A stretch of 20,059 bases of DNA, taken from the IMG/VR virus record IMGVR_UViG_2651869749_000005; one strand, given 5' to 3'. Position numbers and translations under genes: made by a program. Position 1 is the first letter of the stretch. Each line of letters starts with the position of its first letter. Shown here one piece after another: positions 2,075 to 20,059 of this stretch. The DNA is from a virus (lineage: Duplodnaviria; Heunggongvirae; Uroviricota; Caudoviricetes). Below the pieces are notes generated by a model. That model was not told the DNA's origin. It ran no database searches and worked only from the letters and a program-made list of their open reading frames with translations.

Positions 2075-2403
2075 CAGTTCACCACCTGTTTAAACTCTGC
2101 GCTGAACTCAACACGCAACATACTGACCTGCGACGACCATTTTGCGCAGGTCACCTTTATCTGCCTGTAACCATAAGGCGGCGTCCACAGAAAAGCCTTC
2201 CAGCCCCCGTGCTCAGCCAGAAACGACTCCAGCGCCGTGGCCTCCTCACGGGAGACAGACAGCGTCACGCTGTACGTTTTCAGGTCAGCGTTCAGCCCGG
2301 CAGGCGCACGCTGGGAATAGCCATCACCAAAGCGCACCTCCCTGACGGAAGGAGCCGATGTCACATCCATCCCGGGTTTCACTTTCCAGCGGAAGGTTTT
2401 CAT
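2074..2403 (-). CDS. M: Minor tail protein M (lambda gpM-like)
   Basis: 109-aa ORF (lambda M is 109 aa) immediately downstream of the tape measure gene with a 4-nt overlap. Confidence 0.88.
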   Translation of the reverse strand: MKTFRWKVKPGMDVTSAPSVREVRFGDGYSQRAPAGLNADLKTYSVTLSVSREEATALESFLAEHGGWKAFLWTPPYGYRQIKVTCAKWSSQVSMLRVEFSAEFKQVVN

Positions 2404-4979
2404 CGTCCACCTCCGGAGAACAGGCCACCATCACGCATCTGTGCCTGAATTTCATCACGGGCACCCTTGCGGGCCATGTCATACACAGCCTTCAGCGCCT
2501 GTGGTCCAATCTGCCCGTTCGTGCCGTCGTTGTTAATCACCACATGGTTATTCTGCTCAAACTTCCCGGACGCCTGCGACCGGCTGTCCGCCAGACTGCC
2601 CGGTGTACCGACATAACCGCCGGTGGCATAGCCGCGCATCAGCCGGTAAAGATTCCCCACGCCAATCCGGCTGGTTGCCTCCTTCGTGAAGACAAACTCA
2701 CCACGGTGAACAATCCCCGCTGGCTCATATTTGCCGCCGGTTCCCGTAAATCCTCCGGTCGCAAAATGGAATTTCGCCGCAGCTGCCTGAATGGCTGTAC
2801 CGCCTGATGCGGATGCGCCGCCACCAACAGCCCCGCCAATGGCGCTACCGATACTCCCGACAATCCCCACCATTGCCTGCTTAAGCAGAATTTCTGTCAT
2901 CATGGACAGCACGGAACGGGTGAAGCTGCGCCAGTTCTGCTCACTGCCGGTCAGCATCGCCGCCATATTCTGCGCAATACCATCAAAGGTCTGCGTGGCA
3001 GCACTTTTAACCTGCGACATACTGTCCGTGGCACTCTCTTTCCACTCGCTCCAGCCGGACTTCAGGCCTGCCATCCAGCTCCCGCGAAGCTGGTCTTCAG
3101 CCGCCCAGGTCTTTTTCTGCTCTGACATGACGTTATTCAGCGCCAGCGGATTATCGCCATACTGTTCCTTCAGGCGCTGTTCCGTGGCTTCCCGCGCTGC
3201 CTGCCGGTCAGTCAGCCCCCGGCTTTTCGCATCAATAGCTGCCCGTTTTGCCCGTTGTTGCTGTGCGAATTTATCCGCCTGCTGCGCCAGCGCATTCAGA
3301 CGCTCCTGATACGTCACCTTGTCGCCAAGTGCCGCCAGCTGGCGTTTGTACTCCAGCGTCTCGTCTTTATGCGCCAGCAGGGATTTCTCCTGTGCGGATA
3401 GCTGACGACGTTGTGCCGCCTCCTCCAGTACCGCGAACTGACTTTCTGCCTTCCACAAATCCCGGCGCTGCTGGCTGATTTTCTCATTCGCTCCGGCATG
3501 CTTCTCCAGCGTCCGGAGTTCTGCCTGAAGCGTCAGCAGGGCAGCATGAGCACTGTCTTCCTGGCGCTCGCCTGCAGACACCTTCACGCCGGACTGTTTC
3601 GGCTTTTTCAGCGTCGCTTCATAATCCTTTTTCGCTGCCGCCATCAGCGTGTTGTAATCTGCCTGCAGGATTTTTCCGTCTTTCAGTGCCTTGTTCAGCT
3701 CTTCCTGCCGGGCGGTATATTTCTCCAGTGGCGTCAGCAGGCGCTCATACGCCTTCTGCGCCTCTCCGGTATACTTCAGCTGTGACGACTCACGCTCAGC
3801 CCTGTCCCTTGCCGCCAGTTCACCGGCTTTTTCCATATCCGACTGCAGCGTTGCCGCTGCCAGACCCAGACGGGCATTTTCCCGGTCATCCCATGCGCCC
3901 TGAAGGTTGGCCCGGAAAGAGGAGGTTTTACCGCGGCGCTGGCTCCGACTCTGGTACCACTGCCATTTTTTATCCGCCTCATCAAATGCCTTCTGCGCAC
4001 TGGCGAGCATATCCGCTGAGGATTCCGGACGACCGATATCCAGAATGGCATCCCACATCGATTTGAATGCCTTCCCTGTTTTATCCGCCCAGGTCTCCAG
4101 TGTTCCCATGTTTTCTTTCAGGCGACGGGTCTGCTCATCAAAGCCTTTCGTGGCGATATCGTTCGCCGCCTGTAAGGCTCCGGCCTCGTCTCCGGAACGC
4201 TGCAGCTGTGCAACATACGCAATCTGCTCTGCCGTCACGTTACGGAACTGGCGCGCCATCGCCATCAGCCCCGACGTCGGGTCAGTGGTCAGTTTTCCGA
4301 TAGCCTCTGCCACCTTGTCCATCTCCACACCGGATGCAGACGCAAAACGCGCGACACTCTGGTTGATGGCATCAAACTGTTCACCACCACGCACACCGGC
4401 ATTCACCAGGGCTGCCAGTGACTCTCTCGCCTGGTTAAACGTCAGCCCTGCCGCCTGCCCGGCTCTTGAGAGCGTCAGCATACGATCGGCAGTCAGTCCG
4501 GCCTGATTACCGGAAAGAACCAGGGTTTTATTAAACGCTGAAAGCGTGGAATCCCCCTGGTACCAGGCGTACGCCAGCGCACCTGTCGCCACCGCCAGCG
4601 AGGTGACCCCGACCATCGGCAGGGTGATCGCACCGGCAAGCCCCCTGAACATGGGGATCATCCCGCCGAAGGAGTCCTTCACCTGACCGCCCTGTTGCAG
4701 CAGAATAAGCCAGGGATTCTGACCACCGGCAAGCTGCGTGGCGATATCCGTAAACTGTGCGGGCAGGGTTCGCATGGCCGCTTTATACTGCCCGACGGAA
4801 ATCCCGGCTTTTTGTGCAGCCAGCGCCTGGCGGCTCAGGCCCTGTTCAACAGCACTGGCGGTTTTTCTGGCGTCGGTATCCAGACCTGAAAAATGACGCC
4901 TTACCCGGCTCATCTGCTCATCGAAACGGACAGCATCCAGACTCAGGTCAATAACAAGATCACCAACCGGCTGGGACAT
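2400..4979 (-). CDS. H: Tail tape measure protein H
   Basis: 859-aa ORF (lambda H is about 853 aa); long helical Ala/Gln/Arg-rich central region, Gly-rich C-terminus; sits between G/T and M as in lambda. Confidence 0.92.
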   Translation of the reverse strand: MSQPVGDLVIDLSLDAVRFDEQMSRVRRHFSGLDTDARKTASAVEQGLSRQALAAQKAGISVGQYKAAMRTLPAQFTDIATQLAGGQNPWLILLQQGGQVKDSFGGMIPMFRGLAGAITLPMVGVTSLAVATGALAYAWYQGDSTLSAFNKTLVLSGNQAGLTADRMLTLSRAGQAAGLTFNQARESLAALVNAGVRGGEQFDAINQSVARFASASGVEMDKVAEAIGKLTTDPTSGLMAMARQFRNVTAEQIAYVAQLQRSGDEAGALQAANDIATKGFDEQTRRLKENMGTLETWADKTGKAFKSMWDAILDIGRPESSADMLASAQKAFDEADKKWQWYQSRSQRRGKTSSFRANLQGAWDDRENARLGLAAATLQSDMEKAGELAARDRAERESSQLKYTGEAQKAYERLLTPLEKYTARQEELNKALKDGKILQADYNTLMAAAKKDYEATLKKPKQSGVKVSAGERQEDSAHAALLTLQAELRTLEKHAGANEKISQQRRDLWKAESQFAVLEEAAQRRQLSAQEKSLLAHKDETLEYKRQLAALGDKVTYQERLNALAQQADKFAQQQRAKRAAIDAKSRGLTDRQAAREATEQRLKEQYGDNPLALNNVMSEQKKTWAAEDQLRGSWMAGLKSGWSEWKESATDSMSQVKSAATQTFDGIAQNMAAMLTGSEQNWRSFTRSVLSMMTEILLKQAMVGIVGSIGSAIGGAVGGGASASGGTAIQAAAAKFHFATGGFTGTGGKYEPAGIVHRGEFVFTKEATSRIGVGNLYRLMRGYATGGYVGTPGSLADSRSQASGKFEQNNHVVINNDGTNGQIGPQALKAVYDMARKGARDEIQAQMRDGGLFSGGGR

Positions 4980-9937: not shown

Positions 9938-10049
9938 TGGGACCCCCTTTTGATTTCTTGTTTGACACTTGCAGTTGCCAGACCGCAAGGTGTTTTAACA
10001 AATCAAAAGGGGTTTTAATAACTGGCTCAAAGCTGAAAGCTTTCCAGAA

Positions 10050-10072
10050 CCCCCAGCCTAGCTGGGGGTTTT
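10050..10072 (+). terminator. Hairpin CCCCCAGC-cta-GCTGGGGG followed by TTTT; candidate left-end IS200 terminator hairpin
   Basis: Direct reading; IS200 is known to carry a terminator-like hairpin near the left end upstream of tnpA. Confidence 0.55.
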
Positions 10073-16222: not shown

Positions 16223-16450
16223 TCAGCAATTCCTTATCAAAAATCAGTTACGACATGAAATGCCAAAAAAAAACAGATTTTTCATCATTCTGATGTCGTT
16301 TCTTTCTTGATAGTTATTTATTTAAAAACAATACGTTAATAACAAGAAGAACTGACATGCTTTTTCCCGGAAAATTTTCATAAATAGCGAAAACCCGCGA
16401 GGTCGCCGCCCCGTAACCTGTCGGATCGCCGGAAAGGACCCACGAAAATG
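16223..16450 (-). promoter_or_regulatory. cos: cos packaging site: cosB (16223-16399), cosN cohesive end (16400-16411), cosQ-like flank (16412-16445)
   Basis: Reverse complement of 16367-16411 is GGGCGGCGACCTCGCGGGTTTTCGCTATTTATGAAAATTTTCCGG, identical to the first 45 nt of lambda as I recall. Reverse complement of 16412-16445 (CGTGGGTCCTTTCCGGCGATCCGACAGGTTACGG) matches the lambda right end. Confidence 0.9.
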
Positions 16451-16618
16451 ATAATAATTATCATCTACATGAGGTTTATCACGACATGTGTGTACGCCAT
16501 CAAACCACGAGAAATAATCAATTATTACGCAGGTATCGTATTAATTGATCTGCATCAAATTAGCGTAAAAGCAACATCAGATAATACAAATCAGCAACAC
16601 TGAATACGGGGCAACATT

Positions 16619-16843
16619 ATGTCATCAAAGAACAGAACCCGCAGAACAACAACCCGCAACATCCGATTTCCAAACCAGATAATTGAACAAATTAACATCG
16701 CTCTTGACCTGAAAGGTTCAGGTAATTTTTCAGCGTGGGTTATTGAAGCCTGCAGAAGAAGATTAATTAATGAAAAATATTCTCAATTTGTACCCAACAA
16801 AGACAAACACGACCAGAGCACCTGTTCAGACAGGTTTACTTAA
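16619..16843 (+). CDS. Small ribbon-helix-helix-like DNA-binding protein (possibly DUF3950-type; unverified)
   Basis: 74-aa plus-strand ORF; basic N-terminus, then RNIRFPNQIIEQINIALDLKGSGNFSAWVIEACRRRL, which fits a beta-strand/helix/G-x-S/helix RHH fold; GGGG 8 nt upstream of the ATG; followed by an intrinsic terminator. Confidence 0.6.
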   Translation: MSSKNRTRRTTTRNIRFPNQIIEQINIALDLKGSGNFSAWVIEACRRRLINEKYSQFVPNKDKHDQSTCSDRFT

Positions 16844-16861
16844 ACGACTTATATATGACAC

Positions 16862-16890
16862 AAAAAGCGACCACTAAAGTCGCTTTTTCT
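16862..16890. terminator. Bidirectional intrinsic terminator between the convergent RHH and perC-like genes
   Basis: AAAAAGCGAC-cactaaa-GTCGCTTTTTCTT: 6-bp GC-rich stem flanked by an A-run and a T-run. Confidence 0.75.
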
Positions 16891-16924
16891 TATGGTAACA
16901 GGCAATAACTCTCTCAGATATTTT

Positions 16925-17239
16925 TTAGCATTTTTTTGACCGCGCGTTTCCGGACGTATTCTGTTCTCCTGTCCCTTTATATCGTCGGAATACCCGCCGC
17001 TCTTCAAATCCCATTCCCAACTCAGAATGTAGTCTGTTGACCGCTTGTTTTATTTCGGTCAGGTTCACCGGTGAAACCGGAGTCCGGCGCGCCTTACGCA
17101 AACACTCTGCTCGTTTCTGTGCCGCCACTTTTCTTTTCTGGTCATCACTTAGCTGTACCATCACTTTTGCCCATCGTTCAGCTGCTCTCCGGTACAGTCC
17201 TTTTTTCTCCAGACATTCTGCCACGTGATCATGTAGCAT
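16925..17239 (-). CDS. PerC-family transcriptional regulator homolog (Pch-like)
   Basis: 104-aa ORF MLHDHVAECLEKKGLYRRAAERWAKVM...; the LE.KG.WRRAA.RW signature matches my recollection of PerC/Pch regulators of EPEC/EHEC. Strong GGAGG SD 6 nt upstream; preceded by a roughly 460-bp AT-rich leader. Confidence 0.65.
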   Translation of the reverse strand: MLHDHVAECLEKKGLYRRAAERWAKVMVQLSDDQKRKVAAQKRAECLRKARRTPVSPVNLTEIKQAVNRLHSELGMGFEERRVFRRYKGTGEQNTSGNARSKKC

Positions 17240-17704
17240 AAGTGACCTCCGATTATCTACAGACTGCCATCCTGAATTTACCTTCCCTTAATGAAATAAC
17301 AATAAAAAACAAACCACGCAAAAACAATAAAACAACACACAAAAAAAACTAAATAATAAACAAAAATAATCACCTTATTTTATTATTTTTTGAGGGAGCA
17401 ATTACTGAACAAAAAACGCTGACTATATACTCAAAACCAAACAACTATTCTGCCAATCAGGTATCATGGCAACACACGGAATTACCGTGTTTTTGCCTTC
17501 TCTGCCCATACAATACGGGCATATACTTCATTCTCTATTGTAATATTTCTATCCATGTGCCCCACTCCATTTACCTGTAAATAATATTCAAAATATTTAT
17601 CACAGAAATCGTTTTTGGCCATGAACTGAGCACACTATAAAGTCCGGAACTGACTCTTTGTTAAATTACCTTAACGTTACCAGTAACACCTTCATAACAA
17701 AACA

Positions 17705-18507: not shown

Positions 18508-19041
18508 CTATCTGTCGATGTCCCTGCACGCCAGCGCGCTCTCCTGGTCACGCCGTGAGACCTGACCGTAGCAATTATTTGAACGGATACGGCAGTCTCT
18601 GCCACCGTCCTTAATCCACCAGCGAATCGCCTCACAGGCACCTTTTCGATCGCCTGCATTAATTCGTTTATAAAACGTCGACGGGAAGCACTTACCGGGG
18701 CCAATGTTGTACGGACAGAATGACGCGATCCCCGCTTTCTGGGGTTCGGTCAGCGGCACCCGGATGTTTTTCTCCACCCATGCCAGCGCCTTGTCACGTT
18801 CGATGGCATTAACCCGGTCGCATTTTTCCTTTGACAGCTTCATGCCAGGAATAACAGGCTTACCATCCACCAGAATGGCACCACGGCAGATGGTCCAGAT
18901 CCCCGCACCATCACGGTATGCCGTGGTGTGGTTACCTTCCTTTTCATCCAGAAACTGGTCGAGGATTTCAGGCGCAGAAGCACCTGCACCAATCAGCGCC
19001 AGAACGGCAGCCGACAGGCCGTATTTTATTTTTTCGTTCAT
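18508..19041 (-). CDS. R: SAR endolysin R (GH24 T4-lysozyme-like with N-terminal signal-anchor-release domain)
   Basis: 177-aa ORF; N-terminal weakly hydrophobic Gly/Ala-rich segment YGLSAAVLALIGAGASAP (SAR-like), then E...D...T catalytic pattern (KEGNHTTAYRDGAGIWTICRG) typical of phage lysozymes. Confidence 0.88.
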   Translation of the reverse strand: MNEKIKYGLSAAVLALIGAGASAPEILDQFLDEKEGNHTTAYRDGAGIWTICRGAILVDGKPVIPGMKLSKEKCDRVNAIERDKALAWVEKNIRVPLTEPQKAGIASFCPYNIGPGKCFPSTFYKRINAGDRKGACEAIRWWIKDGGRDCRIRSNNCYGQVSRRDQESALACRDIDR

Positions 19042-19080
19042 GGGGATTTATCGATTTCTAATCCCTTGATATGTTAGGTA

Positions 19081-19086
19081 TATAAT
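19081..19086 (+). promoter_or_regulatory. Consensus -10 hexamer TATAAT upstream of the plus-strand moron ORF
   Basis: GGTATATAAT at 19077-19086, about 70 nt upstream of the ATG at 19159; no well-spaced -35 (TTGATA is only 9 nt upstream), so promoter assignment is tentative. Confidence 0.4.
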
Positions 19087-19158
19087 CCAACACTCATGGT
19101 CGCTCTCATAAACATATCCCTTGAGACGCAGCAGATTACAACAAATGAAGCCATATAA

Positions 19159-19473
19159 ATGAACAGTAAAGAAAGTTTGCGCAGAAGATTTTTACAACTA
19201 ATGACAGAAAACGTTAAATCAGAGTTACTTCTTCTGATGGCAGATAATAACGAAGCAACAAGCAGCATTCTTGCAGACCCTTACGGTAAGATCTCACATA
19301 AAACGCTGGATATTATTACCACAACATTAACACCGCTGATGCTTCAACGGCTGAAACATAATATCAACGCATGGGTTAATGAAGAATTAAGTCCTCCCTG
19401 CTTATGGGATTCTCGTTACGCATGTCAGCAAAAAATGCGAATTTTCAGCTTACTATCACCAAAGCTCAGGTAG
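19159..19473 (+). CDS. Hypothetical protein encoded on the opposite strand between holin and endolysin (moron); position and size reminiscent of the Qin prophage ydfR, unverified
   Basis: 104-aa plus-strand ORF in a visibly AT-rich block (19042-19728) lacking any long minus-strand ORF; predicted soluble, helical, no TM segment. I do not recognise the sequence. Confidence 0.5.
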   Translation: MNSKESLRRRFLQLMTENVKSELLLLMADNNEATSSILADPYGKISHKTLDIITTTLTPLMLQRLKHNINAWVNEELSPPCLWDSRYACQQKMRIFSLLSPKLR

Positions 19474-19728
19474 CCATAAAATCCTGCCCTTCATGGCATA
19501 CAGGATTTCAATGGAATCACAATGACCAACTCTTGCACAGCTGTATCCCTGACTCCCCGACAACTCAGATTTTCAGTATCTGCTGCTATCTAAAGAGAAA
19601 GCGCACAAATGCAAGGGTCTTTCATCACGTCCTGTTATTGATTGCCTGTGACCTTTTCTTACCTCATGGAACGTTTTTTCAGTTAGAAATATTCATTTTA
19701 CAACCAGTTCGTATTGTTTATTCATCGA

Positions 19729-19935
19729 CTACTCTCCCCGCGCCACCTTACGCTTATCTTCTTTAATCTTGAAATAAAGGTTAGTCAGATACGTCAGCAG
19801 GCCAAACAGCAGACTCCCCAGCACACCGATTGCCACCCACTGGGACGGAGAGACTTTGTCCAGCAGCTGCAGTAACCAGTATCCCGTCCCCACCGCTGAC
19901 GTGGTGTATGACACACCCGTTGTGATTTTTTCCAT
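19729..19935 (-). CDS. S: Class II holin, phage 21 S-type pinholin
   Basis: 68-aa [71 protein letters not shown]; two TM segments and a charged C-terminus, closely resembling S21 as I recall; GGAGA SD upstream. Confidence 0.88.
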
Positions 19936-20059
19936 CTGATGTATGTCTCCGTCACCGCCGACGTAAGCGTACAGCCTGAACCGTCTGGTCAGAATCTGAC
20001 GAATTAGACAAAGTGGTGTCCACCAAATAAGTAGTGGGAACCAAAGTGTCAGATATGCA

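What the first reader, a model, noticed from the sequence alone, without database searches (positions are those of the whole stretch)
19042..19728. Low-GC, opposite-strand moron wedged between the pinholin and the SAR endolysin
The S and R genes are separated by about 690 bp of visibly AT-rich DNA. Its only substantial ORF (104 aa, 19159-19473) is on the plus strand, opposite to late transcription, downstream of a perfect TATAAT -10. That orientation and composition suggest horizontally acquired cargo expressed independently of the late operon, possibly in the lysogen. The protein is soluble, helical and unfamiliar to me; its position recalls ydfR of the Qin prophage, but I cannot confirm similarity. 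An inverted repeat (AAATCCTG...CAGGATTT) follows the stop.
Basis: partly seen in the sequence, partly recalled or inferred. Interest (0 to 1): 0.6.

Follow-up and report, generated by a model that had tools for sequence, protein, structure and literature searches.

The report
Orphaned small prophage gene between lysis genes
The AT-rich DNA between the holin and endolysin genes of this E. coli prophage carries a real but uncharacterised 104-residue protein gene on the opposite strand, next to the decayed remains of the late-strand gene it is normally paired with.

Summary
S (19729-19935, P21-type holin) and R (18508-19041, lysozyme) are 687 bp apart. That spacer has 39% GC against 53% for the window. 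The plus-strand ORF 19159-19473 is a real gene. dN/dS is 0.15-0.25 against seven homologues, and it is the only frame without stops in 13 homologues. The 104-aa start is supported over the 90-aa RefSeq start. It belongs to PHROG 1853 (function unknown) and is not DUF1327/YdfR. No Pfam, NCBIfam, PADLOC, PDB or fold match is informative. The AlphaFold model is a confident five-helix bundle. New here: in every other diverged lineage but one, this gene lies tail-to-tail with a late-strand gene of PHROG 1085, often fused to DUF1327. In the window that partner is a fossil: a 10-codon DUF1327 start (19693-19725, minus) and a decayed C-terminal piece (19530-19644). The orphan form occurs in 626 of 5,426 complete E. 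coli genomes. The TATAAT exists but has no -35. The inverted repeat is at chance level and is not a terminator. Expression in the lysogen and the function remain untested. My best guess is a small binding protein made outside the late programme that acts on partner-type proteins. Interest is modest.

The parts
19159..19473 (+). Gene 'Y': 104-aa soluble five-helix protein of PHROG 1853, function unknown. RefSeq calls a 90-aa version starting at 19201.
   Evidence: phrog_1853 E 4.8e-47. dN/dS 0.15-0.25 against 7 homologues, with the first 16 alignment columns giving pS 0.62 and pN 0.03 against L003. Only stop-free frame in 13 homologues. AF2 pLDDT 83.7, pTM 0.72.
19081..19086 (+). TATAAT, a -10-like hexamer 72 nt upstream of the Y start. 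No matching -35.
   Evidence: Sequence. Kept in window, L055, L007, L056 and L057, and TACAAT in L003. Absent from the phage-86 class. Promoter scan found no site.
19145..19162 (+). Five-codon upstream ORF (MKPYK*) whose TGA overlaps the Y ATG as ATGA. It contains the weak SD-like GAAG. Significance unknown.
   Evidence: Sequence. The same ATG-N12-AATGA arrangement is seen in L055, L003, L007 and L056. The phage-86 class has a canonical GAGGA instead.
19479..19508 (.). 8-nt inverted repeat AAATCCTG/CAGGATTT after the Y stop. Chance-level, not a terminator.
   Evidence: Mutated without compensation in L055.
19693..19725 (-). Fossil start of a DUF1327 (YdfR-family) late gene: ATG three bases after the S stop, then MNKQYELVVK and TGA.
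   Evidence: Window 19690-19727 is 92% identical to the 5' end of the 385-aa DUF1327-PHROG 1085 gene in L061, which begins MNKQYELVVK. Also 75% over 12 aa to phage 86 orf5. DUF1327 in orf5 has E 3.7e-45.
19530..19644 (-). Decayed remnant of the conserved C-terminal domain of the partner gene (PHROG 1085), with in-frame stops.
   Evidence: 60% ungapped identity over 115 nt to the collinear part of phage 86 orf5, 35.4 bits. 300 shuffles gave mean 19.5, sd 2.0, max 32.6. Collinear in the MAFFT alignment.
19729..19935 (-). S, a P21-type class II holin (pinholin family), 68 aa. Context.
   Evidence: PF04971 E 1.9e-32. The upstream Met of the 71-aa form is replaced by Ile.
18508..19041 (-). R, a phage lysozyme with an N-terminal Gly/Ala-rich SAR-like segment. 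Context.
   Evidence: PF00959 E 7.6e-24. E35-x8-D44-x5-T50 read from the translation.

Best explanation
The spacer is what remains of a two-gene convergent module inserted at the head of lambdoid lysis cassettes.

Half one is a late-strand gene of PHROG 1085. It has a conserved C-terminal domain and is often fused to an N-terminal DUF1327/YdfR domain. Here it has been destroyed by deletion and decay.

Half two is gene Y (19159-19473, PHROG 1853). It survives intact and is still under purifying selection.

Y lies antisense to the late transcript, so it must be transcribed from its own signal. The candidate is the conserved TATAAT at 19081-19086. Y would therefore be made when the late operon is silent, that is in lysogeny or early infection. 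Head-on late transcription would oppose it afterwards.

Y is a small basic cytoplasmic five-helix bundle with no catalytic or membrane features. It most likely acts by binding another macromolecule. The conserved gene neighbourhood makes the C-terminal domain of partner-family proteins the best candidate target. In this orphan lineage those proteins would have to come in trans from other lambdoid (pro)phages, or Y has acquired a partner-independent role.

Shown: the gene is real, its strand, its composition, its family, the module architecture, and the fossil partner.

Inferred: its own promoter, the timing of expression, action by binding, and the target.
For: The gene is real:
-.
- Within the 690-bp class, Y diverges 3.8% while its flanks diverge 7.8-11%. 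Substitutions are 7 synonymous to 5 non-synonymous (binomial p 0.005).

Module architecture:
- Y is convergent with a PHROG 1085 C-terminal-domain gene in 35 of the loci I fetched. By annotated coordinates the two genes overlap by up to 33 nt (L077) or are separated by up to 21 nt (L065).
- These loci come from at least 7 diverged Y lineages in E. coli, Salmonella and metagenomes, with Y identity down to 20-34%.
- The module sits either between a P21-type S and R, or just upstream of holins of three further kinds: PF16080 (L076), PF05106 (L077, L078) and an unclassified 101-aa holin (L065). In L080 it lies upstream of a holin that is again P21-type.

Fossil partner in the window.

Decay in the second partner-less lineage:
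- Y there (L056, L092, L093; P0004, P0006, P0010, P0012) has its C-terminus disrupted in several different ways.
- This is what coupling to the partner would predict.

Composition and strand.

The -10 hexamer is conserved in the window's class.

Protein features: soluble five-helix model, no family or fold assignment.
Against: - No direct evidence of transcription, promoter activity or protein. No -35 was found and no terminator.
- The partner is very often found without Y. L066-68, L072-74 and L081 have S-partner-R. A further 1,010 complete E. coli genomes match the L007 Y-plus-partner query only in part, and the sampled hits cover only its partner half, against 27 genomes with that pair intact.
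- Y alone is common and intact, in 626 genomes. So neither gene strictly needs the other.
- Conserved adjacency could reflect common descent of a linked pair rather than interaction.
Confidence: 0.4

Rival explanations
1. Partner-independent moron. Y is a stand-alone lysogenic-conversion or superinfection-exclusion/defence gene expressed from the prophage. Its adjacency to the PHROG 1085 gene is only shared ancestry of an insertion site.
For: - Opposite strand, AT-rich, GC3 0.37.
- The orphan form is intact and widespread, in 626 of 5,426 genomes and often EHEC, with a purifying-selection signal after loss of the partner.
- It stays intact in an O157:H7 prophage whose R gene is cut by an IS element.
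- An unrelated gene (phrog_10490) sits in the same opposite-strand slot elsewhere, which suggests a cargo hotspot.
Against: - No PADLOC hit at E <= 10.
- No signal peptide, transmembrane segment or enzyme motif.
- Y is next to a PHROG 1085 gene or its remnant in all but one diverged lineage and in several lysis-cassette contexts.
- The second partner-less lineage shows Y decaying.
Confidence: 0.28
2. Relic. Y in this lineage is a leftover with no current function. Its intactness reflects the recent clonal spread of one prophage type.
For: - 622 of 632 records are at least 99% identical, so most copies are too young to have decayed.
- The partner is already dead.
- Occasional disrupted variants exist (P0001, P0013, P0016).
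- The sister partner-less lineage is decaying.
Against: - Among the diverged members of the same 690-bp class (L052, L054, L055), Y changes 2-3 times more slowly than both flanks.
- Its changes are biased to synonymous sites: 7 of 12 where 2.5 are expected, p 0.005.
Confidence: 0.15
3. Lysis regulator. Y binds the pinholin, the SAR endolysin or the spanins to prevent premature lysis or to tune its timing.
For: - The module is always adjacent to holin or endolysin genes, across several unrelated holin types.
Against: - Y is on the wrong strand to be part of the late lysis programme.
- There is no similarity to any lysis-category PHROG.
- The start of the late operon is a general cargo site, so adjacency is weak evidence.
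Confidence: 0.1
4. The functional unit is not the protein. The spacer acts at the RNA or DNA level, through antisense transcription against the late S-R mRNA or as a spacer or insulator that uncouples R translation from S. The ORF is incidental.
For: - Convergent genes with overlapping or abutting 3' ends and no terminator between them imply mutual antisense transcripts.
- R must initiate translation independently of S here.
Against: - Strong protein-level purifying selection and an ORF kept open at 104-107 aa across lineages.
- No Rfam family at E <= 1.
- The candidate upstream structure is weak: -6.5 kcal/mol with a positive (unfavourable) covariation term.
Confidence: 0.05

Closest known systems
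PHROG 1853 (phage protein family of unknown function). RefSeq WP_122995794.1 and WP_000138558.1, 'hypothetical protein'. Stx2-converting phage 86 orf6.
   Same: Direct family member (E 4.8e-47). Same length, same opposite-strand position next to R.
   Different: In phage 86 and most other lineages the gene is paired with an intact late-strand PHROG 1085 gene. Here the partner is a fossil. RefSeq starts the protein 14 codons too late.
YdfR / DUF1327 (PF07041) of the Qin prophage, reported to bind the RNase E catalytic domain and possibly RNA (PMC13232886).
   Same: Occupies the S-R slot of P21-type lysis cassettes. A 10-codon DUF1327-type start is present in this spacer.
   Different: It is encoded on the late (minus) strand and is unrelated in sequence to the 104-aa ORF. 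In the window it is only a stub.
Classical lambdoid morons in the late region, for example lambda bor downstream of Rz on the opposite strand (my own knowledge of lambda).
   Same: An extra, AT-rich, oppositely oriented gene embedded among late genes, presumed to have its own promoter.
   Different: bor is a lipoprotein with a known serum-resistance phenotype and defined signals. Y is cytoplasmic, has no demonstrated promoter or terminator, and is ancestrally half of a gene pair.
Convergent regulator/target pairs in prophages, such as type I toxin-antitoxin loci with 3'-overlapping antisense partners (txpA/RatA, bsrG/SR4) and the oppositely transcribed regulators of P22 immI (my own knowledge).
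   Same: A late or toxic gene faced by an oppositely transcribed element with overlapping or abutting 3' ends.
   Different: Y is a conserved protein, not just an RNA. The partner commonly exists without Y, so it is not a toxin that needs an antidote. No functional data.

Membership tests
DUF1327 / YdfR (PF07041) | Significant match of the 104-aa protein to the PF07041 profile | tested here: not met
   No Pfam hit at E <= 1. hhalign of the Y profile against the DUF1327-containing phage 86 orf5 gives probability 0.1%.
DUF1327 / YdfR (PF07041) | Gene on the late strand between S and R | tested here: not met
   Y is on the opposite strand. The late-strand DUF1327 gene survives only as a 10-codon stub at 19693-19725.
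PHROG 1853 | Significant match to the family HMM over the full length | tested here: met
   E 4.8e-47, residues 1-102 on profile positions 57-158 of 159. The distant homologue in L076 also matches, E 1.5e-9.
Moron (extra gene unit in a phage genome) | Present between genes that are adjacent in related phages | tested here: met
   A P21-type holin and lysozyme overlap directly in L080. S-partner-R without Y occurs in L066-68, L072-74 and L081.
Moron (extra gene unit in a phage genome) | Nucleotide composition different from its neighbours | tested here: met
   GC 0.387 against 0.52-0.54, and GC3 0.37 against 0.60-0.65. Y is also more AT-rich than its partner in six of seven paired loci, the seventh (L080) being equal.
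Moron (extra gene unit in a phage genome) | Its own promoter and terminator flanking the gene | tested here: inconclusive
   A conserved TATAAT but no -35, and no promoter-like site by the scan. No terminator: the inverted repeat lacks a T-run and is at chance level.
Moron (extra gene unit in a phage genome) | Expressed from the repressed prophage | not testable with these tools
   No transcriptome data are available here. The literature searches found nothing on this ORF.
Toxin-antitoxin or effector-immunity pair (Y as antidote of the PHROG 1085 partner) | The toxic partner is not found without its antidote | tested here: not met
   Partner-only cassettes are common.
Toxin-antitoxin or effector-immunity pair (Y as antidote of the PHROG 1085 partner) | Physical interaction or neutralisation between the two proteins | not testable with these tools
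   Complex prediction was not possible. Only the gene-neighbourhood association is shown.
Known anti-phage defence systems (PADLOC-DB) | Match to any defence-system protein model | tested here: not met
   No family at E <= 10, for Y or for phage 86 orf5.
Phage lysis accessory proteins (antiholin, spanin, lysis regulators) | Membership of a lysis-category family, or a membrane or signal feature | tested here: not met
   The only PHROG hit is 'unknown function'. The model is an all-helical soluble bundle.
Bcl-2-like helical bundle | Fold match covering the whole domain with a high score | tested here: inconclusive
Pinholin / SAR-endolysin cassette (context genes S and R) | P21 S-family holin, and a lysozyme with an N-terminal SAR-like segment and an E-x8-D-x5-T triad | tested here: met
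   PF04971 E 1.9e-32 and PF00959 E 7.6e-24. The SAR-like segment and the triad were read from the translation. SAR behaviour itself was not tested.

The most novel reading that the evidence does not exclude
PHROG 1853 and PHROG 1085 form a previously unrecognised two-component system attached to lysis cassettes. In this reading the partner is a late-expressed effector, often fused to the RNase E-binding YdfR domain. Y is a cognate inhibitor made outside the late programme. Orphan Y genes, such as the one in this window and in 626 complete E. coli genomes, would act as 'immunity-only' loci. They would blunt the effector of competing or superinfecting lambdoid phages, which would be a form of inter-prophage competition.
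Probability: 0.1. Interest if true: 0.7.

Novelty: new member of a known kind. Interest (0 to 1): 0.35.

Why it matters
If Y is made in lysogens, it is one more uncharacterised accessory protein carried by a prophage type common in EHEC. This window also carries a PerC/Pch-type regulator. The more useful result is structural. The 'intergenic' S-R spacer is a decayed two-gene module. The S-R slot is a recombination and cargo hotspot that holds YdfR-family late genes and at least two unrelated opposite-strand genes. This gives a concrete, testable pairing (PHROG 1853 with PHROG 1085/YdfR) for proteins that are currently all annotated as hypothetical. It also corrects the RefSeq start of a protein present in hundreds of genomes.

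Tried and rejected
Searches for Y that gave nothing:
- Pfam, NCBIfam and PADLOC.
- PDB by sequence, with the single protein and with a profile.
- Foldseek against BFVD gave no hit at E <= 0.001.
- The afdb50 library was unavailable.

Family size:
- The exhaustive HMM search of 1.84 billion representative proteins found only 20 relatives, none annotated.
- Cluster members are all 'hypothetical'.

Partner protein:

Other collections:
- The scan of one genome per species found no Y locus.
- A first alignment was too diverse to scan with.

Literature:
- Nothing on this ORF.
- Only YdfR has data, on RNase E binding.

Rejected features:
- The inverted repeat as a terminator.
- The 120-aa ORF 19404-19766.
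- Minus-strand coding under Y. Every antisense frame has at least 3 stops in every homologue. The low pN/pS of one antisense frame is the expected wobble-sharing artefact.
- A conserved RNA structure upstream of R or Y.
- Any Rfam family or tRNA in the spacer.
- Homology between Y and the 95-aa phrog_10490 gene that occupies the same slot.

Full report
**1. What is there**

- The window is the late region of an E. coli lambdoid prophage, with late genes on the minus strand.
- S (19729-19935) matches the P21 holin family PF04971 (E 1.9e-32). R (18508-19041) matches PF00959 (E 7.6e-24).
- R has a Gly/Ala-rich N-terminal segment and an E35-x8-D44-x5-T50 motif. Rz and Rz1 follow.
- Between the R start and the S stop lie 687 bp (19042-19728).
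- The spacer has 39.2% GC. The window has 53.1% and the two flanking genes 52-54%.
- Only 2.4% of equally long windows are as AT-rich. All of those lie in a second AT-rich island at 16223-17704.
- The plus-strand ORF 19159-19473 (104 aa) exists as described.

- A longer plus-strand ORF (19404-19766, 120 aa) also exists. It is not conserved as a protein and is interrupted in L055.
- The TATAAT at 19081-19086 has no usable -35. The two-hexamer scan finds no promoter-like site in 18900-20059.
- The 8-nt inverted repeat after the stop (19479-19486 and 19501-19508) is one of three such repeats in 761 nt. It barely out-folds shuffles, has no T-run, and has an uncompensated change in L055.

**2. The ORF is a real gene**

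- It matches PHROG 1853, function unknown, at E 4.8e-47.
- A word-indexed search of 5.8 billion proteins found 16 clusters.
- An exhaustive profile search of 1.84 billion representatives found only 20 relatives. The family is real but very narrow.
- Codon-level comparison with seven homologues (95% to 50% protein identity) gives dN/dS of 0.15-0.25. The shifted frames give ratios of about 1.
- One antisense frame also looks constrained. That is the wobble-sharing artefact. Every antisense frame carries at least 3 stops in each of 13 homologues, whereas the plus frame has none. The coding content under the ORF is therefore on the plus strand.
- RefSeq annotates a 90-aa product starting at 19201.
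- The 14 upstream codons are conserved as protein. Over the first 16 alignment columns, window against L003 shows 5 synonymous changes to 1 non-synonymous (pS 0.62, pN 0.03). This supports the 104-aa start.

**3. What it is not**

- No Pfam family matches at E <= 1.
- No NCBIfam or PADLOC family matches at E <= 10. No PDB sequence matches, by single sequence or by profile.
- In particular it is not DUF1327/YdfR. Profile comparison with a DUF1327-containing protein gives probability 0.1%.
- AlphaFold2 on an 8-sequence alignment gives a confident five-helix bundle (pLDDT 83.7, pTM 0.72).
- BFVD gives nothing. afdb50 was unavailable.
- No Rfam family or tRNA lies in the spacer.

**4. Context in relatives: the main new finding**

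In Stx2-converting phage 86 the homologue (orf6, 54% identity over the matched 86%; 50% full-length) lies in the same place and orientation. It is convergent with a 268-aa late-strand gene, orf5. The N-terminus of orf5 is DUF1327 (E 3.7e-45) and its C-terminus belongs to PHROG 1085.

The same tail-to-tail pairing recurs in every other lineage recovered but one.

- By annotated coordinates the two genes overlap by up to 33 nt or are separated by up to 21 nt.
- E. coli loci L003-L008 and L057-L063 have partners of 189-385 aa.
- Functional Stx2a phages carry it.
- So do metagenomic contigs.
- So do distant homologues at 20-41% identity in Salmonella-type prophages and metagenomes (L065, L076-L080).

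In those distant loci the pair is not between S and R. It lies just upstream of the holin. The holins there are of three further kinds (PF16080, PF05106 and an unclassified 101-aa holin), and in L080 the holin is again P21-type. The unit that is conserved is therefore the gene pair, not the S-R position. In total, 35 fetched loci show Y plus a partner C-terminal domain.

**5. The rest of the spacer is the fossil of that partner**

- Three bases after the S stop, on the minus strand, an ATG opens MNKQYELVVK followed by TGA (19725-19693).
- Window 19690-19727 is 92% identical to the start of the 385-aa DUF1327-PHROG 1085 gene of L061, which begins with the same ten residues.
- Further in, 19530-19644 aligns without gaps at 60% identity to the collinear part of phage 86 orf5, which encodes the conserved ...MKRIGRCMGYLQVAAEIE... 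region.
- That alignment scores 35.4 bits. 300 shuffles gave 19.5 +/- 2.0 with a maximum of 32.6. The reading frame there contains stops.

**6. How tight is the coupling?**

It is not obligate.

- Partner-only cassettes (S-partner-R) are frequent.
- With the L007 pair as query, 27 complete E. coli genomes carry that pair nearly whole. A further 1,010 genomes match the query only in part, and the sampled hits cover only its partner half.
- The orphan-Y spacer of this window is in 626 of 5,426 complete genomes, mostly at >= 99% identity. These include an O157:H7 prophage whose R gene is cut by an IS3-family element.
- Among the diverged members of the 690-bp class, Y has changed 2-3 times less than both flanks: 3.8% against 7.8-11%. 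Its changes are biased to synonymous sites: 7 of 12 where 2.5 are expected, p 0.005. Selection on Y has therefore continued after the partner's death.
- In the only other partner-less lineage (L056, L092, L093) the Y C-terminus is disrupted in several independent ways.
- In a further set of prophages an unrelated 95-aa gene (phrog_10490) occupies the same opposite-strand position just upstream of R. The site also behaves as a cargo slot.

**7. Mechanism**

Shown:
- a selected, soluble, small helical protein
- encoded antisense to the late operon
- compositionally foreign
- ancestrally paired tail-to-tail with a late gene, with no terminator between them.

Inferred:
- Y needs its own promoter. 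The conserved -10 (TATAAT; TACAAT in L003) is the only candidate. It is absent from the phage-86 class, which has a different leader.
- It would be expressed when pR' is silent. It would be opposed by head-on late transcription and by complementary RNA once the late operon fires.
- Lacking catalytic or membrane features, it most probably acts by binding. The conserved neighbourhood points to the partner's C-terminal domain as the most likely target.

I put 0.4 on this explanation as a whole. The rivals are:
- a partner-independent moron or defence gene, 0.28
- a relic, 0.15
- a lysis regulator, 0.1
- an RNA- or DNA-level role, 0.05.

**8. Comparison with what is known, and verdict**

- The gene is already catalogued (PHROG 1853, RefSeq hypothetical proteins, phage 86 orf6). 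It is uncharacterised, and I found no paper that discusses it.
- It meets two of the four moron criteria I tested: it is an extra unit between genes that are adjacent elsewhere, and it has deviant composition. Its own promoter and terminator are not established, and expression could not be tested.
- It fails membership of DUF1327, of PADLOC defence families and of lysis-category families.
- The toxin-antidote model fails the criterion that the toxic partner is never found alone.
- I file it as a new member of a known kind: an accessory gene embedded in the late operon.
- The added observation is that it is the orphaned half of a conserved two-gene module.
- Interest is modest at 0.35. The most novel reading still open is a lysis-cassette-associated effector/inhibitor pair, with orphan inhibitors acting between prophages. 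I give that about 0.1.

Noticed in passing
window 16925-17239 (-), inside the AT-rich island 16223-17704: A 104-aa PerC-family transcriptional activator (PF06069, E 3.8e-44; Pch-like). It lies between Rz and the small terminase subunit, in a second low-GC island (GC 0.384). That island also holds a plus-strand DUF3950/YlcI-type gene at 16619-16843.
   Followed up: partly
window 9947-10070 (-): Full-length match to the Rfam STnc490 Hfq-binding sRNA (146 bits, gathering score 56) within the head-gene region.
   Followed up: no
window 19936-19944 (-): The holin has only the 68-aa start. The upstream Met that gives the 71-aa form in relatives (MYQMEK... in L061) is Ile-His-Gln-Met here, so the longer S21-71-type product cannot be made.
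   Followed up: partly
window 19145-19162 (+): A five-codon upstream ORF (MKPYK*) whose TGA overlaps the ATG of the 104-aa gene as ATGA. The same arrangement is kept in L055, L003, L007 and L056. The phage-86 class has a canonical GAGGA Shine-Dalgarno instead.
   Followed up: partly
window 19061-19124 (+): Upstream of the gene there is a 9-nt direct repeat ATCCCTTGA (19061-19069 and 19116-19124). There is also an 8-nt inverted repeat GATATGTT/AACATATC (19068-19075 and 19111-19118) bracketing the TATAAT. The consensus fold across six relatives is weak (-6.5 kcal/mol). Unexplained.
   Followed up: partly
L069-L071 3402-3689 (-) relative to S/R on +: An unrelated 95-aa gene (phrog_10490) sits in the same opposite-strand slot just upstream of R, after S, a 213-aa PHROG 1085 protein and a 75-aa DUF1327 ORF.
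   Followed up: partly
L002 about 4895-4925; L065 about 2920-2950; L069 about 3720-3750: The phage-86-class Y genes and the unrelated phrog_10490 gene share a conserved upstream leader. It contains a GC-rich hairpin (CCAGYG...CACTGG), followed in phage 86 by a T-run, which makes it terminator-like on the cargo-gene strand. It replaces the TATAAT-containing leader of the window's class.
   Followed up: partly
L065 4327-5237 and L080 6195-6833: A hicA/hicB toxin-antitoxin pair on the opposite strand lies between the Q antiterminator and the Y/partner module in Salmonella-type prophages. This is another cargo insertion at the head of the late operon.
   Followed up: no
L075 (E. coli O157:H7 PV15-279) 2339-4000: In this O157:H7 prophage an IS3-family element truncates the lysozyme gene and the terminase and portal genes are frameshifted. 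The 690-bp spacer and the small gene are nevertheless 99.9% intact.
   Followed up: no
L056, L092 2501-2878, L093 565-846: A Y lineage at 79% (L056, L092) and 70% (L093) identity lies next to a different 90-aa holin-like ORF with no partner. Here Y has lost its stop (125 aa) or is frameshifted (93, 119 or 120 aa variants), which suggests decay.
   Followed up: partly
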